Origin: Shigella phage JK42 | DNA length: 64,000 nucleotides | Sequence record: MK962756 | Reading direction: 5' to 3' (one strand) | Shown: positions 2,520-32,784 of the stretch, one piece after another | How the letters are laid out: each line of letters begins with the position of its first letter | Numbering within the stretch: the first letter of the stretch is position 1 | The notes under the pieces: model-generated | Seen by the model: only the letters and a program-made list of their open reading frames with translations | The model's database searches: none | What the model was told of the DNA's origin: nothing | Position numbers and translations under genes: made by a program

Positions 2520-3620
2520 TTACGCTGTGAAGATTTTATCCCACATCGCAACAACTGCATCTCGGTTATACTTCTTCCATACTGCTTCAGCACGTTTAAC
2601 TCGAGCTTCGTATGTGTCAGTGAATTCTAATACAGCTTTTGTGTAAAGCGCAACTACTTCTTTCTTAGGAGTAGATGAATCAATTTCTACACGCACAGTA
2701 TCTGGGTCGTATTCAAATGTCGCATGAGGATAATCCTTAAAAACTAACTGGATTACAGGGACACCTTTAGAGATGGCTTCAATAGAACTATTCTCTACCG
2801 TACCTGTGTCAGGACAAGTATTAATAAGTGCTTTAGCTGTTTTAAGACGTTCCATGATTTCACTGTGTGGAGCATCAATAATAACAGGATATTTAGCCGG
2901 TGGCGCCCATTTGCTTGGACAGTATCCTGCACCATTTTCGCCTAGTGCTTTAATCGCTTCAAGAGCAACATCAGTACGACGCATTTTAGTGTCATAACGT
3001 TGTGCACTAATAATCAGATCCGTCGCCGGAAGAACTTCTGGCTTTTCAGTCAAACAAATAACCGGATAATCTTCGGCTTCAAACAACGGATTTGCTCGCC
3101 AATAATCATAATCAATTTTGTCAGTCAGACCTGAAGTCATATAACAATATTTACGTTCAAATTCACGGAAGGCTTTAGTAGGAGCATAACTCTTACCACC
3201 ATTCTTATGAATTTGAATAGTCTGGTCCCAAATTTGAACAATGCCACGAGATACCGGTTCAAATGGTGTTGCCATAAAATTCTTATGAACTTTAGAGAGA
3301 CCTGCGTCTTTAATTGCCTGAACGGTTAGTTTAGTCGGTTCCATAGTAACAACAAAATCGTATTCATGAATGCCGGCTAGTTCAACAATCTTACGAGCCA
3401 TAGTATAACTCATACCTAGACTGAATTTAGTCAGATGACCAACAGGATGATGATTAACCTTCCAATCACCAAATGTGTCATTATCAAAGCCGATATAATC
3501 AATATCAGCACCGATGGACACAAGATATTTCAACACATTTAAATGTACTGCTTCAAGACCACCTTGTACACGTTCTGGGTTAAATGGGACTGCGCGAGAT
3601 GGGATAAACATAACTTTCAT
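2520..3620 (-). CDS. GT-B fold glycosyltransferase (GT4-like); candidate DNA hmC sugar transferase
   Basis: 366 aa; N-terminus MKVMFIPSRAVPFNPERVQGGLEAVHLNVLKYL and C-terminal ...TGTVENSSIEAISKGVPVI resemble retaining GT-B enzymes; inserted between rIIA.1 and gene 39 where T4 has gene 60/mobA. Confidence 0.6.
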   Translation of the reverse strand: MKVMFIPSRAVPFNPERVQGGLEAVHLNVLKYLVSIGADIDYIGFDNDTFGDWKVNHHPVGHLTKFSLGMSYTMARKIVELAGIHEYDFVVTMEPTKLTVQAIKDAGLSKVHKNFMATPFEPVSRGIVQIWDQTIQIHKNGGKSYAPTKAFREFERKYCYMTSGLTDKIDYDYWRANPLFEAEDYPVICLTEKPEVLPATDLIISAQRYDTKMRRTDVALEAIKALGENGAGYCPSKWAPPAKYPVIIDAPHSEIMERLKTAKALINTCPDTGTVENSSIEAISKGVPVIQLVFKDYPHATFEYDPDTVRVEIDSSTPKKEVVALYTKAVLEFTDTYEARVKRAEAVWKKYNRDAVVAMWDKIFTA

Positions 3621-5545: not shown

Positions 5546-5966
5546 ATTTAAATTTAATTTTCTGAAGTGCATCAATTGCAGCCAAACGCCCTTGTTCACT
5601 TTTAACTGTAATGACCACATCACCTGATACGATCACCGAACCATCAACAAATTCTATAGAGCCTTTTTTGAAATCTACGGCTGTATCTGATTCAGGAACT
5701 TCTTCAAAGAATTTAAATTCTGCACCGTAAATTAGAATATCACCTTGCATACTAATGATTGTACGTCCAGGTCCATCGGTTTCAGCGGCAATCATTGAAA
5801 CACCGTAACCAATCATCTCTTCCACAATAAAATCTTTGGACAATAAAGTAGTATGCAGATTAGTATTAAGACGTTTACCAGTCGTATTAAGAATTCTCAA
5901 GAAATTATCTTCCTGTCCTTTGATAATACGATATTTCTTACCAACTTCAAAACCTTTAAAAGACAT
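5544..5966 (-). CDS. hypothetical protein
   Basis: 140-aa ORF between terminator hairpin and coupled small ORF; no recognised motif. Confidence 0.5.
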   Translation of the reverse strand: MSFKGFEVGKKYRIIKGQEDNFLRILNTTGKRLNTNLHTTLLSKDFIVEEMIGYGVSMIAAETDGPGRTIISMQGDILIYGAEFKFFEEVPESDTAVDFKKGSIEFVDGSVIVSGDVVITVKSEQGRLAAIDALQKIKFK

Positions 5967-5968
5967 AA

Positions 5969-6148
5969 TTAACCCTTCTTAAGTAAGTCGTAAAAACCAC
6001 CGTTCACATGTTTAGGAGCAGAAACCCGACGAGTAGACAGACGATGACATTCAGGGCAAACATCGTTTTCTCGTTCAGAAATTCTTTTAATTTTTTCATA
6101 TTCATGACCACAATCTTCAGATTGACATTTATAGTCGTATAACGGCAT
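5969..6148 (-). CDS. small zinc-ribbon protein (FmdB-like CxxC...CxxC)
   Basis: Hand translation: [59 protein letters not shown]; start overlaps upstream stop (TAATG), stop abuts next ATG; below the ORF-track length cutoff. Confidence 0.5.
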   Translation of the reverse strand: MPLYDYKCQSEDCGHEYEKIKRISERENDVCPECHRLSTRRVSAPKHVNGGFYDLLKKG

Positions 6149-6579
6149 TATTGTTCCTTAAAATGTGCTTTCAACATTTGATATAAAGACCATGCCTGGT
6201 CGTTATTTTCGATAGTAATCTTCATCACAGGAAATTCAGACAATTCATCAAGTTCACCAGAATCTTGCTCTTCGGACGCTTGATATGGATTTCCAACTTC
6301 GTCAAAGAATTCTGCTTCATTCGTGGAGAGCCAGATAAAGTTTTCATCAAGGATATCACCACCTGTTGCGTATCCAACCATGCCGGTAGATGTCACAATT
6401 TTAGTAGGACGACCAAGATGGTCAACATCTAATACTTTAAATGGTTCCATGCCAAGACGTCGTGCATAAATCCCATTATCAGTGTGGTCTTTAATAAACT
6501 CTTCTTGGGCACGTTTATCTTTAAATTGGTACCATGAGTTAACGCGGAATTTATTAGCCATTAGTAAGTTTCCTTCCAA
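6148..6579 (-). CDS. hypothetical protein
   Basis: 143-aa ORF, acidic C-terminal half. Confidence 0.5.
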
Positions 6580-6833
6580 TAAGTTGTACCATTTTCAGTG
6601 ATTTCACGGAAGATACCATAGATAGGCATTTCATCACCGAGTTTTTCGTAAACGTAAACCACTTCAGTGTAGCATAAAAATTCGGTCCAGTTTTTCTGTA
6701 CAACAACTAAATCAGGATTAAACAGAACATCTTCAAACTCATCGATGTTTGAATCAGTAGTTACGTTTTTAATGATTTGACGTTTCATAATATTCTCCTC
6801 TTGTTTTGATATGTCTATAGTATCATAGACCAT
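6561..6833 (-). CDS. hypothetical protein
   Basis: 90-aa ORF in the gene chain. Confidence 0.45.
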
Positions 6834-6845
6834 AGTTGTTGTACA

Positions 6846-7370
6846 TCATTTTAGCAAAATAAAATCAACTTGTTCTGCTAATGAACGTCTGAACATTAAT
6901 TGACAACTTCCGAGTATGAAATCAGGTGCTTCATAGACCGCGATGTAGTATCCTTTAGCTTTCAAGAGTTCAACATCCACCTGGTCATCAAACCATGCAT
7001 AAACCGCGTCAACACTTTCAAATCCAAAATAGAACCCTTGAGCCCAATCTTCACTCAATTCAAATGTGTGCTCAATTCTATAGTATCTTAAGATATTTTG
7101 TTCAAGGAGTTTGTCTTCATTTACTGTAGGACGATTAGGGACATTATAGTTGTCGCCGTGATGGTAGAAGTTACCTGAGAGTATTCCATGCTTATCAAGG
7201 AACTCCCATGTTTCTTCAGAGTTGTCAGTGCCTGACCAACCGTACGGCGAGCGAGGTTCTTTATTCCAAGAGGTTTCCCAAATTCTGACGGCTTTACCGT
7301 CTTCGATAGCAATTCCGGGTAATGATTCACGTTGAGTACAAAAACTACGTTCTACGCGGTAAACTAACAT
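6846..7370 (-). CDS. hypothetical protein
   Basis: 174-aa ORF with an early-promoter-like element just upstream (7391-7426). Confidence 0.55.
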   Translation of the reverse strand: MLVYRVERSFCTQRESLPGIAIEDGKAVRIWETSWNKEPRSPYGWSGTDNSEETWEFLDKHGILSGNFYHHGDNYNVPNRPTVNEDKLLEQNILRYYRIEHTFELSEDWAQGFYFGFESVDAVYAWFDDQVDVELLKAKGYYIAVYEAPDFILGSCQLMFRRSLAEQVDFILLK

Positions 7371-7390
7371 ATTATTCTCCTCTGGTTGAT

Positions 7391-7426
7391 ATGGTTATAA
7401 TATCAAAACCAGAGGAGAAGTAAACT
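7391..7426 (-). promoter_or_regulatory. sigma70-type early promoter (GTTTAC -35; A/T -10)
   Basis: Plus strand shows ttataatatc ... gtaaac; minus strand reads GTTTAC, ~16-17 nt, TATTATAA; sits in the intergenic gap. Confidence 0.4.
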
Positions 7427-7429
7427 ACT

Positions 7430-7849
7430 TTATGCAAAAGATGCTTGGCTATATCCTTTGATTTGGAATTCAGGAACTACCATGAACTGTCCGGCGAAAA
7501 CGATGTTATAAAGCTTAACACCATCTTCAACCCATTGGTCTGAAATAAAACCAGCGACTTGATTCGTTGTCCATGGAGACCCATCAGTTGCGGCAGCAAT
7601 AGTAAATTCATGATCTTTTACAACTAAAACTGACCTGCACAGTTTCCATTTGAATGCTTTTTCTTCTGGTTCAATGAACTGACTTGAGACGTAACCAATG
7701 TTACCATTAACATCTCGAACTTTAACTTCGTTACGTCCAAAAACCGGATCACTCACAGAAAGAACTTCAACCAACTTCCCGGCAACTTTAGAGCGAGAAG
7801 CAACAGATACATATACGTAATCACCTGTAGAGAGATTTACAATATTCAT
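7430..7849 (-). CDS. hypothetical protein, tandem paralog A
   Basis: 139 aa; shares ASRSKxAGKLVEV, FKWxLC and GFISDQWVEDGxKLYNIVF with the adjacent ORF. Confidence 0.55.
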   Translation of the reverse strand: MNIVNLSTGDYVYVSVASRSKVAGKLVEVLSVSDPVFGRNEVKVRDVNGNIGYVSSQFIEPEEKAFKWKLCRSVLVVKDHEFTIAAATDGSPWTTNQVAGFISDQWVEDGVKLYNIVFAGQFMVVPEFQIKGYSQASFA

Positions 7850-7858
7850 AATAATTCC

Positions 7859-8320
7859 TTAAGCTTTACGAGGAGACACATAGCGAGTGATTTCAGATTC
7901 TTTAACAACTCGGAAGTCACCTAAGAATACGATATTGTATAACTTTTCACCATCTTCAACCCATTGGTCGCTAATGAAGCCACACATAGTATCAGTTTTG
8001 CTTGAACCGTATTCATCGATGAAGTCAAATTCTTTATCAGTCTGGAATTCAACACCTTTACACAAGGCCCATTTGAACTGTGTAGTAGGCTCAACGATAT
8101 CGCTTGAAGCAAAGTGGGCACTTACACGAGTTTCCAAGAATTTAGGACTTACATAGGCGAACTGAGTTTCAGTTTTTCCAGAACTAGGAATGATTCGAAC
8201 TTTAACTTCTTTAATACGGCCCATGCCATTAGTACGAAGTCCTACTACTTCAACCAGCTTTCCTGCAGCTTTAGAACGAGACGCTGTCGATACACGCTTA
8301 ATTTCACCAATATTAATCAT
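7859..8320 (-). CDS. hypothetical protein, tandem paralog B
   Basis: 153 aa; paralog of 7430..7849 (same conserved blocks). Confidence 0.55.
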   Translation of the reverse strand: MINIGEIKRVSTASRSKAAGKLVEVVGLRTNGMGRIKEVKVRIIPSSGKTETQFAYVSPKFLETRVSAHFASSDIVEPTTQFKWALCKGVEFQTDKEFDFIDEYGSSKTDTMCGFISDQWVEDGEKLYNIVFLGDFRVVKESEITRYVSPRKA

Positions 8321-8351
8321 ATTTTTTTCTCTCTTTGTTTAAGTTGAATTC

Positions 8352-8380
8352 ATTATACTCCATCCATCCTTGGTTGTAAA
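8352..8380 (-). promoter_or_regulatory. early promoter TTTACA-N17-TATAAT, copy 1 of a repeated 31-bp element
   Basis: Plus strand cattatactccatccatccttggttgtaaac; minus strand gives -35 TTTACA, 17-nt spacer, -10 TATAAT. Confidence 0.5.
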
Positions 8381-8386
8381 CCGGTT

Positions 8387-9064
8387 TTATCGCTGTTTTA
8401 CACTTAACGGGTCAGGATTCTCAGGGACATCTTCAAGGCCAAGCGCATAACGCTGAGCATATTTTAACATCAAAATATCTTTAGCACAATCATGAATACT
8501 ATCATGGGCAACGAATCCTTTTAGCGTACCCATCGGTAATGGACACATACTTAATCCTCGTGTCAACGAGTAAGCTTCGATTGCCGTACGAATATCACGT
8601 TGAGCCCAGAATTTAACCGGTTCTAATTTATCAGTATCAATATCTGGTTCAAGAACACCTTCATCACGATAGAGGTCACGAATCAAATCGACCAAGATCG
8701 GGAAGTCAAAGCTCATACCACGGCACCACATCTGTGATTTCCATTGGTCAACTTTATTAGCTCGACAATAATCTAAAAAGATTTTAATGCCTTCAAGCGT
8801 AGTGACATCGTCTTCAGACGGAGCCAGGTTTTTACGCGCTTCTGCTGACTGTTCTTTCCACCATTTCATAGTGGATTTAGCGAAAACTCGCTTCCCTTTC
8901 TGAGAAGCTAAATTAAATTTAATTCGCTTACCTCGTTGAACAAGTTCTTCAAATGATTCAACAACTTCAGGGTCGGAATTATATGCAATAACCGCAAGGT
9001 CAATAACAGCCGCTTTTGATGTATTGCCGAATGTTTCAAAATCTATAATAACATCAGTGCTCAT
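8387..9064 (-). CDS. dexA: exonuclease A (DEDDh 3'-5' exonuclease)
   Basis: 225 aa; N-terminal ...IIDFETFGN... exonuclease motif; size and position after dda as in T4. Confidence 0.8.
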   Translation of the reverse strand: MSTDVIIDFETFGNTSKAAVIDLAVIAYNSDPEVVESFEELVQRGKRIKFNLASQKGKRVFAKSTMKWWKEQSAEARKNLAPSEDDVTTLEGIKIFLDYCRANKVDQWKSQMWCRGMSFDFPILVDLIRDLYRDEGVLEPDIDTDKLEPVKFWAQRDIRTAIEAYSLTRGLSMCPLPMGTLKGFVAHDSIHDCAKDILMLKYAQRYALGLEDVPENPDPLSVKQR

Positions 9065-9073
9065 AATTTTCTC

Positions 9074-10387
9074 TCAAATAAAATGGACGTCAAAACGACC
9101 ACGAGTTGTGCCGACATACAATAACTGTTTAGCTAATTCTGAATCAGCATAATGGATACACGGTGTATAAACAAAGGCCGTGTCAACAGACATACCCTGG
9201 GCCTTATGGAAGGTTGATACTGGTAGTGCCTTCACCTTAGTGAACATACGTTTAGCATCCCAGAATTCGCTCCATGGAGCTTTACCGCCTTTATTCCAGA
9301 ATTTGTATGTTTCTGCGGTCTTAGCCAAAAACAAATTGAATTTATAAAGCTCTTCTTCAGAAGAAATAACCTTTATATCTTCGCGGATGTATTCTTCATC
9401 ATCCCCATATGTTTCTACTGTAAGATTCCAGTATCGTATCATATATTCGCCTGAAACACCACGTGCTTTAACGAATGTAGACGTTTCTACAGCATCTCGA
9501 ATACGAACGAATTGCCCATTATTGAAAAGCATTTCAGTCATATTTTTGCCATCTAGCTTGTACGTCTTAGTAAACGGCTCTTGTAGAACAATGACTTCGT
9601 CTTTAATAAATGGTTTTTCTGTTTCAAGAAGTTTTCGGCGAATAATTGAATTTAACTTGTCCACCGACTTATTTGTGAATGCCATCATTCGATTTTCGAA
9701 AAGGTCTTCAGGAGTTTTAACGACGTTAAAATAGTTCATCATATACGATTTAAGGTCTGTATATCCGTGAACACCGTGTCCATCAACTACTTTATCGTAA
9801 ATCCATTTGCCATTACGAATATCAGTCGCAACATCAATAATTGGTGCATTGCTACGTTTAACTTCTGTAAGGTTGCATTGCACGAAGTCTTTGTGAGTGA
9901 AGAAAGGACTTAGATATGCAGTTGATTCGCCTGGGTCTACCGGTCGAATCTGGCATCGGTCGCCGATTCCAATTACTGTGCACCATTTAGGGATACTAGC
10001 TAACATTATTTTAAACAGAGAACGGTCGCACATTGACGCTTCATCAAATAACAGTACACGACACAAGGCTAAGTCGGGAACCTTTTTCTGTTCAAACAAT
10101 ACGTTTTCTTCGTATGTAGTTGGGTTGATTTTAAGAATGCTATGAATAGTCGATGCTTCTTGACCTGCAAGTTTGCTTAGAACCTTTTTAGCAGCATGTG
10201 TAGGGGCTGCTAAAATAATACCTGATTCTCCGGCAGAAATAAGAGCTTCAACGATGAATCTAGTAAGGGTTGTTTTACCTGTACCAGCAGGCCCATTAAT
10301 AGTTACATGATGTTTCTTTTCTTTAATAGCGTTCATAACAACGTTGAAGGCGTTTTTCTGGCCTTCAGTCAAATCATCAAATGTCAT
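9074..10387 (-). CDS. dda: Dda DNA helicase (SF1B)
   Basis: 437 aa; MTFDDLTEGQKNAFNVVMNAIKEKKHHVTINGPAGTGKTT... matches remembered T4 Dda closely, including Walker A. Confidence 0.92.
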   Translation of the reverse strand: MTFDDLTEGQKNAFNVVMNAIKEKKHHVTINGPAGTGKTTLTRFIVEALISAGESGIILAAPTHAAKKVLSKLAGQEASTIHSILKINPTTYEENVLFEQKKVPDLALCRVLLFDEASMCDRSLFKIMLASIPKWCTVIGIGDRCQIRPVDPGESTAYLSPFFTHKDFVQCNLTEVKRSNAPIIDVATDIRNGKWIYDKVVDGHGVHGYTDLKSYMMNYFNVVKTPEDLFENRMMAFTNKSVDKLNSIIRRKLLETEKPFIKDEVIVLQEPFTKTYKLDGKNMTEMLFNNGQFVRIRDAVETSTFVKARGVSGEYMIRYWNLTVETYGDDEEYIREDIKVISSEEELYKFNLFLAKTAETYKFWNKGGKAPWSEFWDAKRMFTKVKALPVSTFHKAQGMSVDTAFVYTPCIHYADSELAKQLLYVGTTRGRFDVHFI

Positions 10388-10695
10388 CGTAAAGTCCCTG
10401 CAATTGGAATACTAACAATATGGCCTGTGTCCAGAATTCGTTGATACAATCTTTGCGTCTCCGCATCTAGTTTAACGTGTTTCATTTCAAGCTTATTAAA
10501 CCAGAACTTACGCGGAGTTTCGACCATTCTTAGAACTCCCATTTTTAAATCTGTTTTATACTGTGTTTTCAAAGTATCGAAAACTTTATCTGCAATATCC
10601 TTTCTAAAAAATACTGCAGGACGATGTTCATCAAGTGGAACTGGGACAGTAAATCCTTCCATATCTCGATAAACTATTGCATATACATAAACCAT
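10384..10695 (-). CDS. hypothetical protein at the dda.1 position
   Basis: 103-aa ORF overlapping the dda start by 4 nt. Confidence 0.5.
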   Translation of the reverse strand: MVYVYAIVYRDMEGFTVPVPLDEHRPAVFFRKDIADKVFDTLKTQYKTDLKMGVLRMVETPRKFWFNKLEMKHVKLDAETQRLYQRILDTGHIVSIPIAGTLR

Positions 10696-10697
10696 AA

Positions 10698-11444
10698 TTA
10701 ACCTTTAATCAGTTGGAATAATGATGCGCTAAGTGGTAAGCCACGTTTCAATTTTAATTTACCAATGAAACCAATCTTTTCAAAACGTTGCAGACCTTGG
10801 ATAACTTTATCATATGTATCGAAAAGCGATTCAGCGTCAGTTAATTTAGTTTTAGTTTTCCAGTCAGAGCCTTTAAGAAGAACGTTGAGTTTAGTAAGTT
10901 CATGGCCTTCTGCTTGATGTGAGCCATTAATGCGTGCTTTCAAAGCAACAATTCTAAGTTTAGATTCGTTAGATAAAGGTTGATTTTTCATCATGTTCGC
11001 CATATGCTTAACACGATTTTCACGTTTTGCTCGGATTTTTAAAATAGTATCATAAACCTTTTTAATTTGGGCCCATTTCTTCTCGTCGAGATTAAGTTTC
11101 TCTACTTTACAGGCAGAAGGATTAGCGATACGTCTTGCAACAGCGTCACGTTTCTCAATAAGTTCTTCTAATGTTAAATCAGAACGAGCCGTGTTATATT
11201 TTTTCTTAACCGGGATAACATTACCTTTAATGTAGCCGATATCGTTATTAAAACGTTCTAAGGATAATTTCTCACCTTCAACAGAGTTATTGAAAGATTC
11301 ACCTGAGTAAGCGCAGACCTTTTGATCAAGAATGTTTTTAAGGTAATTAAAGTCTAAGTTAAAATCCTTAGAGCGTCTCTTCGCAGAAGCTCTGGTGTGG
11401 TCAAGACGACGATTGATTTTGTTAATTTTATTATTTGATAACAT
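10698..11444 (-). CDS. srd: Srd-like protein (by position)
   Basis: 248 aa, basic and helical; position between dda.1 and modA as in T4; no motif-level confirmation. Confidence 0.45.
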   Translation of the reverse strand: MLSNNKINKINRRLDHTRASAKRRSKDFNLDFNYLKNILDQKVCAYSGESFNNSVEGEKLSLERFNNDIGYIKGNVIPVKKKYNTARSDLTLEELIEKRDAVARRIANPSACKVEKLNLDEKKWAQIKKVYDTILKIRAKRENRVKHMANMMKNQPLSNESKLRIVALKARINGSHQAEGHELTKLNVLLKGSDWKTKTKLTDAESLFDTYDKVIQGLQRFEKIGFIGKLKLKRGLPLSASLFQLIKG

Positions 11445-29684: not shown

Positions 29685-30114
29685 TCAAAAATCAAACATA
29701 TCGAACAGAGATGCTTTCTTCTCGTAATCGAGTTTAGCTGCTGATGTGAATCCTTCAAGTGGTTTAATAAATGTCTTCTCAAGGAGAACAGTGTAGTCCA
29801 TCCAATGAAGTACATCGTCTTTAATTAAATCTGTGATTTCAGTACCAGAAGGCCATGCGATACATTTATCACCGAATGGGTTTCCTTCACGTAAAGGCAG
29901 AACATATACTTTTTCACCTTCTACAACTTGTGGTGCATCAATATTACCTTTGATAGCTCGGTTATATGTCAGAATTCCACGTATATGGAACGGGCATTTA
30001 GGACCCGGGAATCCACCTACGTCGTATTTAGCAATGTTATTCGCAGAAGATACCGACGCGATGCTAATATAATTCAATTGACGGAATTCTTTTTCAAACT
30101 CTTTAAAATATTCT
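29685..30114 (-). pseudogene. detached 3' segment of gene 43 encoding the polymerase C-terminal region and clamp-binding tail
   Basis: In the polymerase frame this segment encodes ...EGFTSAAKLDYEKKASLFDMFDF, the expected gp43 C-terminus; separated from the main ORF by the duplication. Confidence 0.6.
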
Positions 30115-30502
30115 ACTTCATTGGATGGCTGATGTGAATCCTTCAAGTGGTTTAATAAATGTCTTCTCAAGGAGAACAGTGTAGTCCATCCAATGAAGTA
30201 CATCGTCTTTAATTAAATCTGTGATTTCAGTACCAGAAGGCCATGCGATACATTTATCACCGAATGGGTTTCCTTCACGTAAAGGCAGAACATATACTTT
30301 TTCACCTTCTACAACTTGTGGTGCATCAATATTACCTTTGATAGCTCGGTTATATGTCAGAATTCCACGAATATGGAACGGGCATTTAGGACCCGGGAAT
30401 CCACCTACGTCGTATTTAGCAATGTTATTCGCAGAAGATACCGACGCGATGCTAATATAATTCAATTGACGGAATTCTTTTTCAAACTCTTTAAAATATT
30501 CT
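29740..30502. repeat. 375-bp direct repeat, two copies (29740-30114 and 30128-30502), joined by a 13-bp spacer
   Basis: Read directly: copies identical except one mismatch (t/a near 29986/30374); the spacer acttcattggatg is the reverse complement of catccaatgaagt found inside the repeat; period 388 bp is not a multiple of 3. Confidence 0.9.
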
Positions 30503-32784
30503 TGTAATGATTCTTCACCTTCTTGAAGCATACGACGAATACATTCTTTAAGAGCTTTCTGTACTGCTTTAGGGGTCGAAGATTTCTGAGTCTCTAGACC
30601 CATGATTTTGAGTTTAGGCTCAGCGTATCTGGTTCCTTCCATATCCCACACGTTTAATGCATAACGTTTCTTACCAGTCCAGAATCCACCAATACCTTTA
30701 GAACCGAGCGGAGGACCAGCGATAGCTTCTCGGTCCATGAACATTAAGTGTTGTTTATTGTTCATGTATTCACACATTTCACGGAAACCTTTATCAATAG
30801 CTGGTTCCATACGTTCACGAGCGAACTTATCTAAGAAGTCTACCCAATGGTTGGTATCACGGAATTTAGATTCACCAACCTTATCAATAATTTTATCTGC
30901 AGATACGTAAATGGAGTCTGTATCACCATATAGAACGAAAGCTTCACCTTCTGTACCACAAACTTCATTCAGATATTCATTAACTTTACGTTCAATCCAC
31001 TGTAAAGCCATTTGTCCGAATGTTGTGATTGCAGTAGCATTACGCAAATCATAATAACGGAACCAAACGTTGCCAAGTGCACCATAAAGTGAGTTGATAA
31101 GCAATTTACGGTTAATTTGTGCGGTCATACCTGCAACTTCAGTACGTTGAGCTCTAAACAACATTTCATTAAGAGATTTAGCAGACAACTTTTTAATCTT
31201 TTCTTTAATCTCATCACTGAAGTCGAAACGATAATCAACATCTAATGGTTCGTCAACAGAAAGATTAGGATTATGCAATGCCTCTTTAATTATTTCGCCG
31301 TTACGTTGAGCCGCAAGCATGTAACCTTTATGTTCTTTACGTTGATTAAAGACCTTAGTGATTTCAGTTGGAACTACACCATCACGGTCTTTATAATACA
31401 TCATGCCGTTAGGAGAGCAACTGTACACATCTGAAGGACGTTCAGCGATTGCGTTAATATAATCATGCAGTGGAGCTACTTTAAACGTTCCTGCTATTGT
31501 TTCCGGGCTAATATTCACTTGGCGAATAATACTTGGATACAGAGATGTAAGGTCGAAACTCATTACATATTTGTATCGATTTGGAATAGGTTCCTTAACA
31601 AAAGCGCCAGGATAAGGTTGAACCGGGTGAGAACGACCTTGTGGAATCACCTTGTTTTGTTCTTTAAGGCTATTAAAAATAATAGCATCCCAAGTTTTAA
31701 TTGGACTGAACACAGATTGAATCTGAATTTTAGCATAATAACCCATGTCCAAGCTCAAGTTGATGAACTGACGCTTAGAATCAATTTGCAATACACGATA
31801 CACGTCGATAATGTTATAAGAAATATATCGTTGGTGATTGCTTTCACGAAGCTTAGAAATAGGGCCGTCATATTTCAGTTTACCAACGTTCAATTCAAAT
31901 TCTGAAATGTAATCCAGAGAATACGACGGTTGATTGGTAAAAGAGAATTTTTTGTAAAGGTCAATGTAATCAAGAACAGAGATACCGAACAATGTAATGA
32001 TTTCACGAGAACCATACATGTTTTCGATAACTTTAACACGAGTTTTACGATGTGGCGATAAACGTTTCGCAGTAGATTCGCCAAAAATATTCTTGATTCG
32101 GTTATACACATATGGAATATCAAATGACTCAACGTTCCATCCAGTCAAAATGACAGGAGTTTTCTGTTGCCAGAAGTTGAGATATTCCATCAACAATTCT
32201 TTTTCGTTATCGAACGGCATATAAATGATTTTATCGATAATTTCAGATGGAACTTCATCACCGCCTTGTTCTTGAAGCTTAGCAGCGATTTCAATAGACC
32301 ATTCTTCTACATTACCATATGGAGAATTCAATAGATCAAATACGTAGAACCTGTCGTCAATTGAGTCATAATGGGTGATAGCATCAATCGGATGTTTTGC
32401 TTGTGACGGCTCAGGGAACCCATCCGGAGATGTTACTTCGATGTCGAAGTTAGCCACACGAATTTTTGTATGGTCGTATTTGATTTCATAGTTATAAGTG
32501 TCAGACAAATACGCCAATTTGAAATCGTCCATGCCAAGTGCTTCAAGTCCGATATCTTCCATGCGTTTAATCCATTGGGAGGCATCACGCATATTAGCGA
32601 ACAGCTTACGAGTACACGGCTTACCGTAGATATCGAAATATTTCGTAGCCTGACTTTCTGGACAATGAGCAAACAGTGATGGTTTATATTCTACTTCACG
32701 AGTACGTTCACGGCCATTAGAATCGATGTAACGTTCAAAAATTGAATCACCAATCTGTTCAACCGTTAAGTAAAATTCTTTCAT
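30118..32784 (-). CDS. 43: DNA polymerase (family B), C-terminally truncated by the duplication frameshift
   Basis: 888 aa; MKEFYLTVEQIGDSIFERYIDSNGRERTREVEYKP... matches remembered T4/RB69 gp43; the ORF ends ...EGFTSAIQ instead of the clamp-binding tail. Confidence 0.9.
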   Translation of the reverse strand: MKEFYLTVEQIGDSIFERYIDSNGRERTREVEYKPSLFAHCPESQATKYFDIYGKPCTRKLFANMRDASQWIKRMEDIGLEALGMDDFKLAYLSDTYNYEIKYDHTKIRVANFDIEVTSPDGFPEPSQAKHPIDAITHYDSIDDRFYVFDLLNSPYGNVEEWSIEIAAKLQEQGGDEVPSEIIDKIIYMPFDNEKELLMEYLNFWQQKTPVILTGWNVESFDIPYVYNRIKNIFGESTAKRLSPHRKTRVKVIENMYGSREIITLFGISVLDYIDLYKKFSFTNQPSYSLDYISEFELNVGKLKYDGPISKLRESNHQRYISYNIIDVYRVLQIDSKRQFINLSLDMGYYAKIQIQSVFSPIKTWDAIIFNSLKEQNKVIPQGRSHPVQPYPGAFVKEPIPNRYKYVMSFDLTSLYPSIIRQVNISPETIAGTFKVAPLHDYINAIAERPSDVYSCSPNGMMYYKDRDGVVPTEITKVFNQRKEHKGYMLAAQRNGEIIKEALHNPNLSVDEPLDVDYRFDFSDEIKEKIKKLSAKSLNEMLFRAQRTEVAGMTAQINRKLLINSLYGALGNVWFRYYDLRNATAITTFGQMALQWIERKVNEYLNEVCGTEGEAFVLYGDTDSIYVSADKIIDKVGESKFRDTNHWVDFLDKFARERMEPAIDKGFREMCEYMNNKQHLMFMDREAIAGPPLGSKGIGGFWTGKKRYALNVWDMEGTRYAEPKLKIMGLETQKSSTPKAVQKALKECIRRMLQEGEESLQEYFKEFEKEFRQLNYISIASVSSANNIAKYDVGGFPGPKCPFHIRGILTYNRAIKGNIDAPQVVEGEKVYVLPLREGNPFGDKCIAWPSGTEITDLIKDDVLHWMDYTVLLEKTFIKPLEGFTSAIQ

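What the first reader, a model, noticed from the sequence alone, without database searches (positions are those of the whole stretch)
7430..8320. Tandem paralog pair of unknown early proteins
The adjacent 139-aa and 153-aa ORFs share conserved blocks (ASRSKxAGKLVEV, FKWxLC, GFISDQWVEDGxKLYNIVF) with divergent middles, indicating a local duplication followed by divergence. Both are downstream of copy 1 of the repeated early promoter.
Basis: seen in the sequence. Interest (0 to 1): 0.35.

Follow-up and report, generated by a model that had tools for sequence, protein, structure and literature searches.

The report
Tandem MotB paralogs in T4-like phage
The two adjacent genes are real, old duplicates, but they are not unknowns: they belong to the phage T4 MotB family of DNA-binding proteins, and this duplication was first described in phage RB69 in 2006, so the finding is ordinary.

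Summary
ORF153 (7859-8320, minus strand) and ORF139 (7430-7849, minus strand) are homologous: 43% identity, BLASTP E=1e-30, z=43 against shuffles.

The label "unknown early proteins" is wrong. Both match Pfam PF17613 (motB) far above its cut-off. ORF153 is the counterpart of T4 MotB (49% identity). ORF139 is the second copy, "MotB'", described in 2006 as RB69ORF010c and listed in a 2021 MotB survey.

The window is a Mosigvirus (T4-like phage) early region. The pair sits between dexA and a motB.2-like gene, behind a strong sigma-70-type promoter that has three copies in the window.

- **Age:** the duplication is old (dS 1.8 between the copies).
- **Selection:** both copies are under purifying selection (dN/dS about 0.2).
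- **Distribution:** about 207 of 773 MotB-bearing phage records carry both copies, always as a fixed two-gene unit.
- **Divergence:** MotB' has a shorter, uncharged N-terminal domain and a 5-residue linker in place of 15-50 residues.
- **Exchange:** the unit has its own history, with much higher dS than its flanks within Mosigvirus and much lower dS than its flanks against Tequatrovirus RB68.
- **Collapse:** fused MotB/MotB' genes occur in metagenomes.

The function of MotB' is untested.

The parts
8352..8380 (-). Sigma-70-type early promoter (TTTACA, 17-nt spacer, TATAAT). It lies inside repeat family D4 (8339-8387). The inferred transcription start is near 8345.
   Evidence: Consensus scan gives 11 of 12 matches, the best in 5800-10800. 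D4 has three copies in the window. The same element precedes motB in all Mosigvirus loci examined. Its function was not tested.
7859..8320 (-). motB ortholog, 153 aa. It has a basic KOW-like N-terminal barrel (residues 1-63, net charge +8), a low-confidence (probably flexible) linker (pLDDT below 50 at residues 66-79) and a C-terminal beta-barrel (about 82-148).
   Evidence: PF17613 at 1.1e-39. phrog_1671 at 5e-64. 49% identity to T4 MotB, E=3e-44. AF2 model with pLDDT 79. Charge figures.
7850..7858 (-). 9-nt gap between the genes. The ribosome-binding site of the second gene (TAAGGA) overlaps the stop codon of motB. There is no promoter or terminator here, so co-transcription is inferred.
   Evidence: Sequence. 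The junction TAAGGAATTATTATG is identical in RB68. The 9-nt spacing is the same in L001, L002, L004 and L020-L023.
7430..7849 (-). motB' (RB69ORF010c-type MotB paralog), 139 aa. It has the same two-barrel fold, an uncharged and shorter N-terminal domain, and a 5-residue linker.
   Evidence: PF17613 at 7.7e-23. phrog_1671 at 9e-51. 38.5% identity to T4 MotB, E=5e-27. AF2 model with pLDDT 87 and pTM 0.72. dN/dS 0.16 among orthologs. Charge and linker figures.
7375..7443 (-). PeSL-like promoter plus stem-loop cassette that bounds the pair downstream. The hairpin spans 7375-7419 and the promoter-like TTTACT-16-TATTAT spans 7424-7397. The 3' arm of the hairpin contains the GAGGAG ribosome-binding site of the next gene.
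   Evidence: Repeat family D2/D3 has 6 copies in the window. The RNA folds at -23.9 kcal/mol, z=-5.6. Promoter scan gives 9 of 12. GTTTAC-N17-TATAAT-type sites number 6 against 0.94 expected.
6846..7370 (-). Context: motB.2-like gene, 174 aa, downstream neighbour. It is not a detectable MotB paralog.
   Evidence: 34% identity to T4 MotB.2, E=2e-15, and no significant similarity to ORF153 or ORF139. phrog_1106.
8387..9064 (-). Context: dexA exonuclease, upstream neighbour.
   Evidence: PF16473 at 4e-20 and phrog_255 at 1e-81. Annotated as exonuclease in relatives.

Best explanation
The locus is a two-gene early cassette, motB followed by motB', in a Mosigvirus (T4-like) phage. Both products belong to the T4 MotB family: a small KOW/Tudor-like N-terminal beta-barrel joined to a conserved C-terminal beta-barrel that carries the G[FY]I[ST]DQWVEDGxKLYN[IV]VF motif.

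Shown here:
- The two genes are homologous.
- They belong to the MotB family and share its two-barrel fold.
- The duplication is old and both copies are under purifying selection.
- The two genes keep a fixed order and spacing.
- The pair has been exchanged between phage lineages as one unit, bounded by repeated promoter cassettes.

Inferred:
- Host RNA polymerase transcribes both genes immediately after infection from the promoter at 8352-8380.
- ORF153 acts like T4 MotB. T4 MotB coats DNA without sequence preference, alters how the host silencer H-NS (and StpA) sits on DNA, and raises burst size about two-fold.
- ORF139 has diverged in function. It keeps the family C-terminal domain but has lost the positive charge and hairpin of the N-terminal domain and the flexible linker. 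It probably binds DNA more weakly, and works beside or on MotB or a shared partner rather than as a redundant copy.
For: - **Family membership:** PF17613 scores of 136.4 and 81.6 bits against a cut-off of 25. phrog_1671 hits. 49% and 38.5% identity to T4 MotB.
- **Fold:** both AF2 models have an N-terminal barrel plus a C-terminal barrel. The best PDB matches are tandem Tudor (53BP1, E about 4e-4) and KOW6-KOW7 of DSIF, at low TM-scores of 0.3-0.4. The best viral matches are MotB-family and 'KOW domain-containing' proteins of T4-like phages. This agrees with the published HHpred KOW-like N-terminal domain (PMC7827196).
- **Context:** the gene order is dda, dexA, motB, motB', motB.2-like, cef, goF. 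The window is 98.5% identical to Mosigvirus NicPhage.
- **Promoter:**
- **Both copies kept:** dN/dS is 0.23 for MotB and 0.16 for MotB' across 11 loci. MotB' is exactly 139 aa in nearly all close relatives.
- **Old duplication:** dS is 1.83 between the copies.
- **Divergence:** N-terminal-domain net charge is +5.3 (range 2 to 8) in 47 MotB sequences and -0.4 (range -2 to +1) in 17 MotB' sequences. Linker length is 15-50 aa against 5 aa.
- **Unit behaviour:** dS among Mosigvirus loci is 0.47 and 0.38 for the pair against 0.06-0.10 for dexA, cef and motB.2. Against Tequatrovirus RB68, dS is about 0.5 for the pair and 1.0 to saturated for the flanks. The junction is identical.
- **Function of T4 MotB:** PMC6070864 and PMC7827196.
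Against: - No experiment exists for any Mosigvirus MotB or for any MotB'. DNA binding and an effect on H-NS are extrapolated from a T4 protein that is 49% and 38.5% identical.
- T4 MotB's own mechanism is incompletely understood. A motB knockdown barely changes the T4 transcriptome (PMC6070864).
- The loss-of-charge argument is indirect. The C-terminal domain could also bind DNA, and PMC7827196 assigns it an OB-fold DNA-binding role.
- The promoter is only a consensus match.
- Fold matches to PDB are weak (TM 0.3-0.4).
- The position of MotB' relative to the other MotB clades is unresolved. The grouping with Mosigvirus-type MotB has only 48% bootstrap support.
Confidence: 0.85

Rival explanations
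1. ORF139 is a redundant or decaying extra copy of motB that simply adds dosage and has no distinct role.
For: It has the same family, fold and operon as motB. Most MotB-bearing phages, 566 of 773 records including T4, manage with one copy. Natural fusions that collapse the pair into one hybrid gene occur in at least four samples.
Against: dN/dS is 0.16, lower than for motB itself. Length is a constant 139 aa, and the ribosome-binding site and 9-nt spacing are conserved across genera. Differences specific to the MotB' group are fixed: an uncharged N-terminal domain, a 5-aa linker, and 8 positions conserved differently in the two groups. The copies are anciently diverged (dS 1.83), yet both persist.
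Confidence: 0.12
2. ORF139 is a partner or antagonist of MotB. It would pair with MotB, or with the same host target, through the shared C-terminal domain, and tune MotB's otherwise toxic DNA coating.
For: The C-terminal motif is almost invariant in both groups, while the N-terminal domain has lost its charge. The two genes are always adjacent and co-transferred. T4 MotB is highly toxic when expressed alone (PMC6070864). The same C-terminal domain is also attached to a third, LSm-like N-terminal domain in MotB.1 (PMC12152347).
Against: There is no evidence of any MotB-MotB' contact, and no complex prediction could be run here. Phages with a single motB need no such partner.
Confidence: 0.25
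3. The shared blocks reflect composition or recent gene conversion rather than divergence from an old duplication.
For: One 22-nt run (GACCAATGGGTTGAAGATGGTG) is identical in both copies. Recombinant hybrids break exactly in the conserved blocks.
Against: z=43 against shuffles, with composition-adjusted E=1e-30. Synonymous sites are near saturation overall, and only 37 of 63 shared residues use the same codon.
Confidence: 0.02

Closest known systems
Phage T4 MotB (Pfam PF17613; NP_049626)
   Same: ORF153 is 49% identical over the full length. It shares the two-domain layout, the basic N-terminal domain, the acidic flexible linker, the C-terminal motif, early-promoter control and the position in the dexA-cef early region.
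   Different: The gene order differs. In T4 it is dexA, motB.2, motB.1, motB, cef. Here it is dexA, motB, motB', motB.2-like, cef, with no motB.1. T4 has only one motB.
RB69ORF010c and other 'MotB-like protein' genes of Mosigvirus and some Tequatrovirus phages (RB68, RB51, Sf24, ime09, PP01)
   Same: ORF139 is 84-100% identical to these proteins, with the same 139-aa length and the same position 9 nt downstream of motB. The RB69 gene was described as a paralogous duplication of motB in PMC1524935. Table S6 of PMC7827196 lists nine phages with a MotB count of 2 (RB69, RB51, APCEc01, JS09 and others).
   Different: Nothing substantive. The window's copy is 100% identical to that of phage mar005P1.
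T4 MotB.1 family (LSm-like N-terminal domain plus a MotB-type C-terminal domain)
   Same: It shares the C-terminal motif (GWVTDQWIEDGVELLNVVH against GFISDQWVEDGxKLYNIVF) (PMC7827196, PMC12152347).
   Different: Its N-terminal domain is unrelated. The window lacks this gene, although its closest relatives carry it between dexA and motB.
PeSL (promoter-early stem-loop) cassettes of T4-type phages
   Same: The element at 7375-7443 combines a sigma-70-like promoter with a stable stem-loop and is repeated 6 times in the window. Indels and allele swaps at this locus end in repeated promoter elements. PMC2839356 and PMC4122927 describe the same behaviour.
   Different: The upstream D4 element was not tested for a stem-loop. 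Terminator activity and mini-circle formation were not tested.

Membership tests
MotB family (Pfam PF17613) | Profile match above the curated gathering score (25 bits) | tested here: met
   ORF153 scores 136.4 bits (E=1.1e-39, profile positions 2-157 of 162). ORF139 scores 81.6 bits (E=7.7e-23). phrog_1671 gives 5e-64 and 9e-51.
MotB family (Pfam PF17613) | Two-domain layout: a KOW-like N-terminal barrel plus a conserved C-terminal beta-barrel (PMC7827196) | tested here: met
   AF2 models (pLDDT 87 and 79) show two all-beta domains in both proteins. Foldseek finds tandem Tudor and KOW6-KOW7. TM-scores are low (0.3-0.4), and the C-terminal domain looks more like an SH3/Tudor barrel than the published OB-fold call.
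MotB family (Pfam PF17613) | Located in the dexA-cef early, non-essential region of T-even-type phages, behind an early promoter | tested here: met
   Neighbours are dda, dexA, motB.2-like, cef and goF. The promoter consensus match is 11 of 12.
MotB family (Pfam PF17613) | Non-specific DNA binding, co-purification with H-NS and StpA, toxicity in E. coli, and about a 2-fold gain in burst size (PMC6070864) | not testable with these tools
   Only indirect evidence is available. The N-terminal domain of ORF153 is basic (+8), like that of T4 MotB (+5), while that of ORF139 is +1.
MotB' subgroup (RB69ORF010c-like) | 139-aa protein, at least 80% identical within the group and below 60% to any other MotB, encoded directly downstream of motB | tested here: met
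   The identity distribution is bimodal, with 207 records at 80% or more, 566 below 60% and none between. The group is monophyletic in 200 of 200 bootstraps. The 9-nt spacing is conserved.
PeSL regulatory cassette (the flanks, not the genes) | Strong sigma-70-like promoter combined with a stem-loop, repeated in hyperplastic regions, at indel boundaries | tested here: inconclusive
   The downstream element meets the sequence criteria. For the upstream D4 element, only the promoter and its role as a recombination endpoint were shown. Terminator activity was not tested.

The most novel reading that the evidence does not exclude
motB-motB' is a mobile two-gene cassette whose halves have split one job. 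MotB would be the basic, DNA-coating component. MotB' would be an uncharged, rigid derivative that keeps the family's C-terminal interaction domain and either modulates MotB or binds the host target (H-NS/StpA) directly. On this reading the deep allelic diversity and the transfer between genera reflect selection by different hosts' nucleoid proteins or defences.
Probability: 0.25. Interest if true: 0.4.

Novelty: already known. Interest (0 to 1): 0.12.

Why it matters
The finding matters little on its own. The genes are annotated as MotB-like in RefSeq relatives, and the duplication was published in 2006 and counted again in 2021.

Three points of modest value remain:
- The second copy is a distinct, conserved subgroup with a neutral N-terminal domain and almost no linker, and nobody has characterised it.
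- It is a natural comparator for finding out which part of MotB binds DNA and which part deals with H-NS.
- The locus is a clean example of promoter-cassette-bounded module exchange and collapse in T-even phages.

Tried and rejected
- **PDB sequence search with ORF153:** no relative with a solved structure. The only hit was a chance match at E=0.3.
- **IMG/VR locus survey:** it returned only 15 loci, 3 of them with the pair. The copy-number survey therefore rests on tblastn against the phage collection.
- **Whole-protein net charge as a discriminator:** rejected. The MotB group ranges from -14 to +7, because of acidic linkers and spurious N-terminal extensions. Only the domain-level comparison is informative.
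- **Dating the duplication relative to the MotB groups:** a C-terminal-domain tree rooted on MotB.1 puts MotB' next to Mosigvirus-type MotB with only 48% bootstrap support. This is unresolved.
- **ORF174 as a third distant paralog:** a visual C-terminal resemblance in a MAFFT alignment was not backed by BLASTP (E=1.1). It is instead the MotB.2 counterpart.
- **Gene conversion as the source of the conserved blocks:** rejected on synonymous divergence.

Full report
**1. What is at the coordinates**

On the minus strand there are two ORFs: 7859-8320 (153 aa) and 7430-7849 (139 aa). They are separated by 9 nt, and these 9 nt together with the stop codon of the first gene contain the ribosome-binding site of the second (TAAGGAATTATTATG).

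BLASTP with composition adjustment aligns the two proteins over their full lengths at 43% identity, E=1e-30. The Smith-Waterman score is 239 against 29 +/- 5 for 2000 shuffles (z=43). Both halves are significant separately: N-terminal domain z=14.6 and C-terminal domain z=33.6.

The middles differ because the 139-aa protein lacks about 13 linker residues and a 6-residue hairpin tip.

**2. What the genes are**

Both proteins match Pfam PF17613 'motB' (136.4 and 81.6 bits against a cut-off of 25) and PHROG 1671 'MotB-like transcriptional regulator'.

Similarity to the T4 proteins, taken from NC_000866:

| Window gene | Best T4 match | Identity | E-value |
|---|---|---|---|
| ORF153 | MotB | 49% | 3e-44 |
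| ORF139 | MotB | 38.5% | 5e-27 |
| ORF174 (6846-7370) | MotB.2 | 34% | 2e-15 |

The surrounding genes are dda, dexA, cef and goF. The DNA is 98.5% identical to Mosigvirus vB_Eco_NicPhage and 92-98% identical to many other Mosigvirus genomes. In those genomes the two genes are annotated as 'MotB-like transcriptional regulator (x2)'. The proteins are therefore not unknown.

**3. What is already published**

- Nolan et al. 2006 (PMC1524935) named RB69ORF010c as a paralogous duplication of the adjacent motB.
- Patterson-West et al. 2021 (PMC7827196) surveyed MotB homologs and predicted a KOW-like N-terminal domain and an OB-fold-like C-terminal domain.
- Their text notes two motB copies in RB69. 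Their Table S6 lists nine phages with a MotB count of 2: RB69, RB51, O157 typing phage 3, APCEc01, JS09, PhAPEC2, Sf24, Shf125875 and SHSML-52-1.
- T4 MotB binds DNA without sequence specificity, co-purifies with H-NS and StpA, is toxic in E. coli, and doubles burst size (PMC6070864).
- T4 MotB also changes H-NS footprints and de-represses H-NS-controlled host genes (PMC7827196).
- I found no functional work on the second copy.

**4. Copy-number survey**

tblastn of ORF139 against 50,697 phage records finds 773 records and 981 places. The identity distribution is bimodal: 207 records have a copy at 80% identity or more, 566 have only a match below 60%, and none lies between.

The 208 extra places match the 207 high-identity records almost exactly. 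Every listed high-identity record has two places and, apart from one Klebsiella phage record, every listed low-identity record has one. So roughly a quarter of MotB-bearing phages carry the pair.

These are Mosigvirus genomes plus a subset of Tequatrovirus genomes (RB68, ime09, PP01 and CEV1; RB51 and Sf24 in Table S6). In every locus inspected the order is motB then motB', with a 9-nt gap.

**5. Age and selection**

Between the two copies in the window dN is 0.52 and dS is 1.83, which is near saturation. Only 37 of 63 shared residues use the same codon. The duplication is therefore old, and the blocks are conserved at the protein level.

Across 11 loci, dN/dS is 0.23 for motB and 0.16 for motB', so both are under purifying selection.

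In a C-terminal-domain tree rooted on MotB.1, MotB' and Mosigvirus-type MotB are each monophyletic in 200 of 200 bootstraps. Their sister relationship has only 48% support, so the timing of the duplication relative to the other MotB groups is open.

**6. How the copies differ**

AF2 models built from a 67-sequence alignment give two all-beta domains in both proteins. The ORF139 model has pLDDT 87.4 and pTM 0.72. The ORF153 model has pLDDT 79.1 and pTM 0.45, with a low-confidence linker at residues 66-79.

Foldseek against PDB returns tandem Tudor domains of 53BP1 (E about 4e-4 to 8e-4) and KOW6-KOW7 of DSIF. TM-scores are only 0.3-0.4, so this is a resemblance of fold class (two SH3-like barrels) and nothing more. 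Against viral models the hits are MotB-family and 'KOW domain-containing' proteins of T4-like phages.

Comparison of 47 MotB and 17 MotB' sequences:

| Feature | MotB | MotB' |
|---|---|---|
| N-terminal domain net charge | +5.3 (range 2 to 8) | -0.4 (range -2 to +1) |
| Linker length | 15-50 residues, acidic | always 5 residues |
| C-terminal domain length | about 73 residues | 74 residues |

Forty-two alignment columns are conserved identically in both groups. Eight are conserved differently.

I infer that MotB' has lost the electrostatic part of non-specific DNA binding and the flexible tether, while keeping whatever the C-terminal domain does. This inference is untested.

**7. The pair behaves as a cassette**

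Among Mosigvirus loci the flanking genes are nearly identical, but the pair is deeply diverged at an ordinary dN/dS:

| Gene | Mean dS among the loci compared |
|---|---|
| dexA | 0.07 |
| cef | 0.06 |
| motB.2 | 0.10 |
| motB | 0.47 |
| motB' | 0.38 |

Against the Tequatrovirus RB68 the pattern reverses:

| Gene | dS, window vs RB68 |
|---|---|
| dexA | saturated |
| cef | 2.4 |
| goF | 1.0 |
| motB | 0.52 |
| motB' | 0.56 |

The motB-motB' junction in RB68 is identical to the window's. The pair therefore has a history separate from its surroundings and has moved between genera as one unit.

The pair is bounded by repeated promoter elements:
- **Upstream:** the D4 family, with three copies in the window.
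- **Downstream:** a six-copy promoter plus stem-loop family at 7375-7443. Its hairpin folds at -23.9 kcal/mol, z=-5.6.

A direct example lies next door. In NicPhage and most close relatives, a motB.1-like gene (164 aa) sits between dexA and motB, flanked by two D4-type promoter copies. The window has a single hybrid promoter and no motB.1. The two alignment pieces overlap by 67 nt inside the repeat. Ten of the 40 best-matching records share the window's shorter arrangement.

**8. Collapse of the pair**

Three database proteins are hybrids with a MotB N-terminal part and a MotB' C-terminal part: P0028, P0029 and P0031. Their joins lie in the FKWxLC block or the DQWVEDG block. P0028 and P0029 are encoded as the only full-length motB-type gene at this locus, alongside motB.1, which also matches the motB Pfam model. 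They occur in contigs from four different sequencing runs. The context of P0031 was not examined. Unequal recombination between the copies therefore occurs, and the fused gene persists.

**9. Expression (inferred)**

The promoter at 8380-8352 (TTTACA-17-TATAAT) is the best sigma-70-type match in the 5 kb scanned. T4-style GTTTAC-N17-TATAAT sites are enriched in the window, with 6 found against 0.94 expected. No promoter-like or terminator-like site separates the two genes, so co-transcription as an early message is the simplest reading.

**10. Verdict**

This is a correct observation of an ordinary and already described feature. The residual interest lies in the uncharacterised MotB' subgroup and in the tidy evidence for cassette-like exchange. 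Neither would surprise a T4 specialist.

Noticed in passing
window 29740-30502: A 375-nt stretch (29740-30114) recurs 388 nt downstream with one mismatch, inside the 3' end of the DNA polymerase (gp43-like) gene. This breaks the gene into an 888-aa ORF (30118-32784) that lacks the normal C-terminus and a 172-aa fragment (29685-30203) that carries it (...LDYEKKASLFDMFDF). The best-matching relatives cover these 1201 nt in 813 nt, so they lack the duplication. It is either an assembly artefact or a real tandem duplication.
   Followed up: partly
window 7375-7443; also 12213, 19525, 53995, 58616 and 62270: A six-copy PeSL-like family of early promoter plus stem-loop. In the 7375-7419 copy, the 3' arm of the hairpin contains the GAGGAG ribosome-binding site of the motB.2-like gene, and the 5' arm lies in the promoter spacer. 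Read-through RNA from upstream could therefore mask that site, while RNA started at the local promoter could not. This mechanism is inferred, not tested.
   Followed up: partly
window 8321-8387 compared with L001 3500-3600 and 4070-4160: The window lacks the motB.1-like gene that its closest relatives carry between dexA and motB. In NicPhage that gene is flanked by two copies of the D4 promoter element. The window has one hybrid copy, consistent with deletion by recombination between the promoter repeats.
   Followed up: yes
L003 (T4) 2722-2808 and 2795-3151: T4 motB.1 (119 aa, ending ...GGWVTDQWIGRWR) appears frameshifted relative to relatives of 164 aa or more. The last 29 residues of the conserved C-terminal domain are still encoded just downstream in another frame, 86% identical to NicP_036 residues 136-164.
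   Followed up: partly
window 8321-8365; L001 3525-3566: Many database MotB entries of 165-175 aa begin MEYNEFNLNKERK... That ATG lies inside the -10 region of the promoter, so the extension is probably an annotation artefact. In the window, an A7 run in place of A6 before the true start puts that upstream ATG out of frame, leaving the 153-aa form.
   Followed up: partly
L024 1373-1894; L025 4001-4492; L026 2199-2690; L027 37-528: Natural hybrid genes (MotB N-terminal domain fused to a MotB' C-terminal domain at the FKWxLC block) replace the tandem pair in metagenomic contigs from four runs.
   Followed up: yes
window 6846-7370: The motB.2-like gene lies downstream of motB' here and in other Mosigvirus genomes, whereas in T4 and RB68 it lies directly after dexA. 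The locus has therefore been rearranged between genera.
   Followed up: partly
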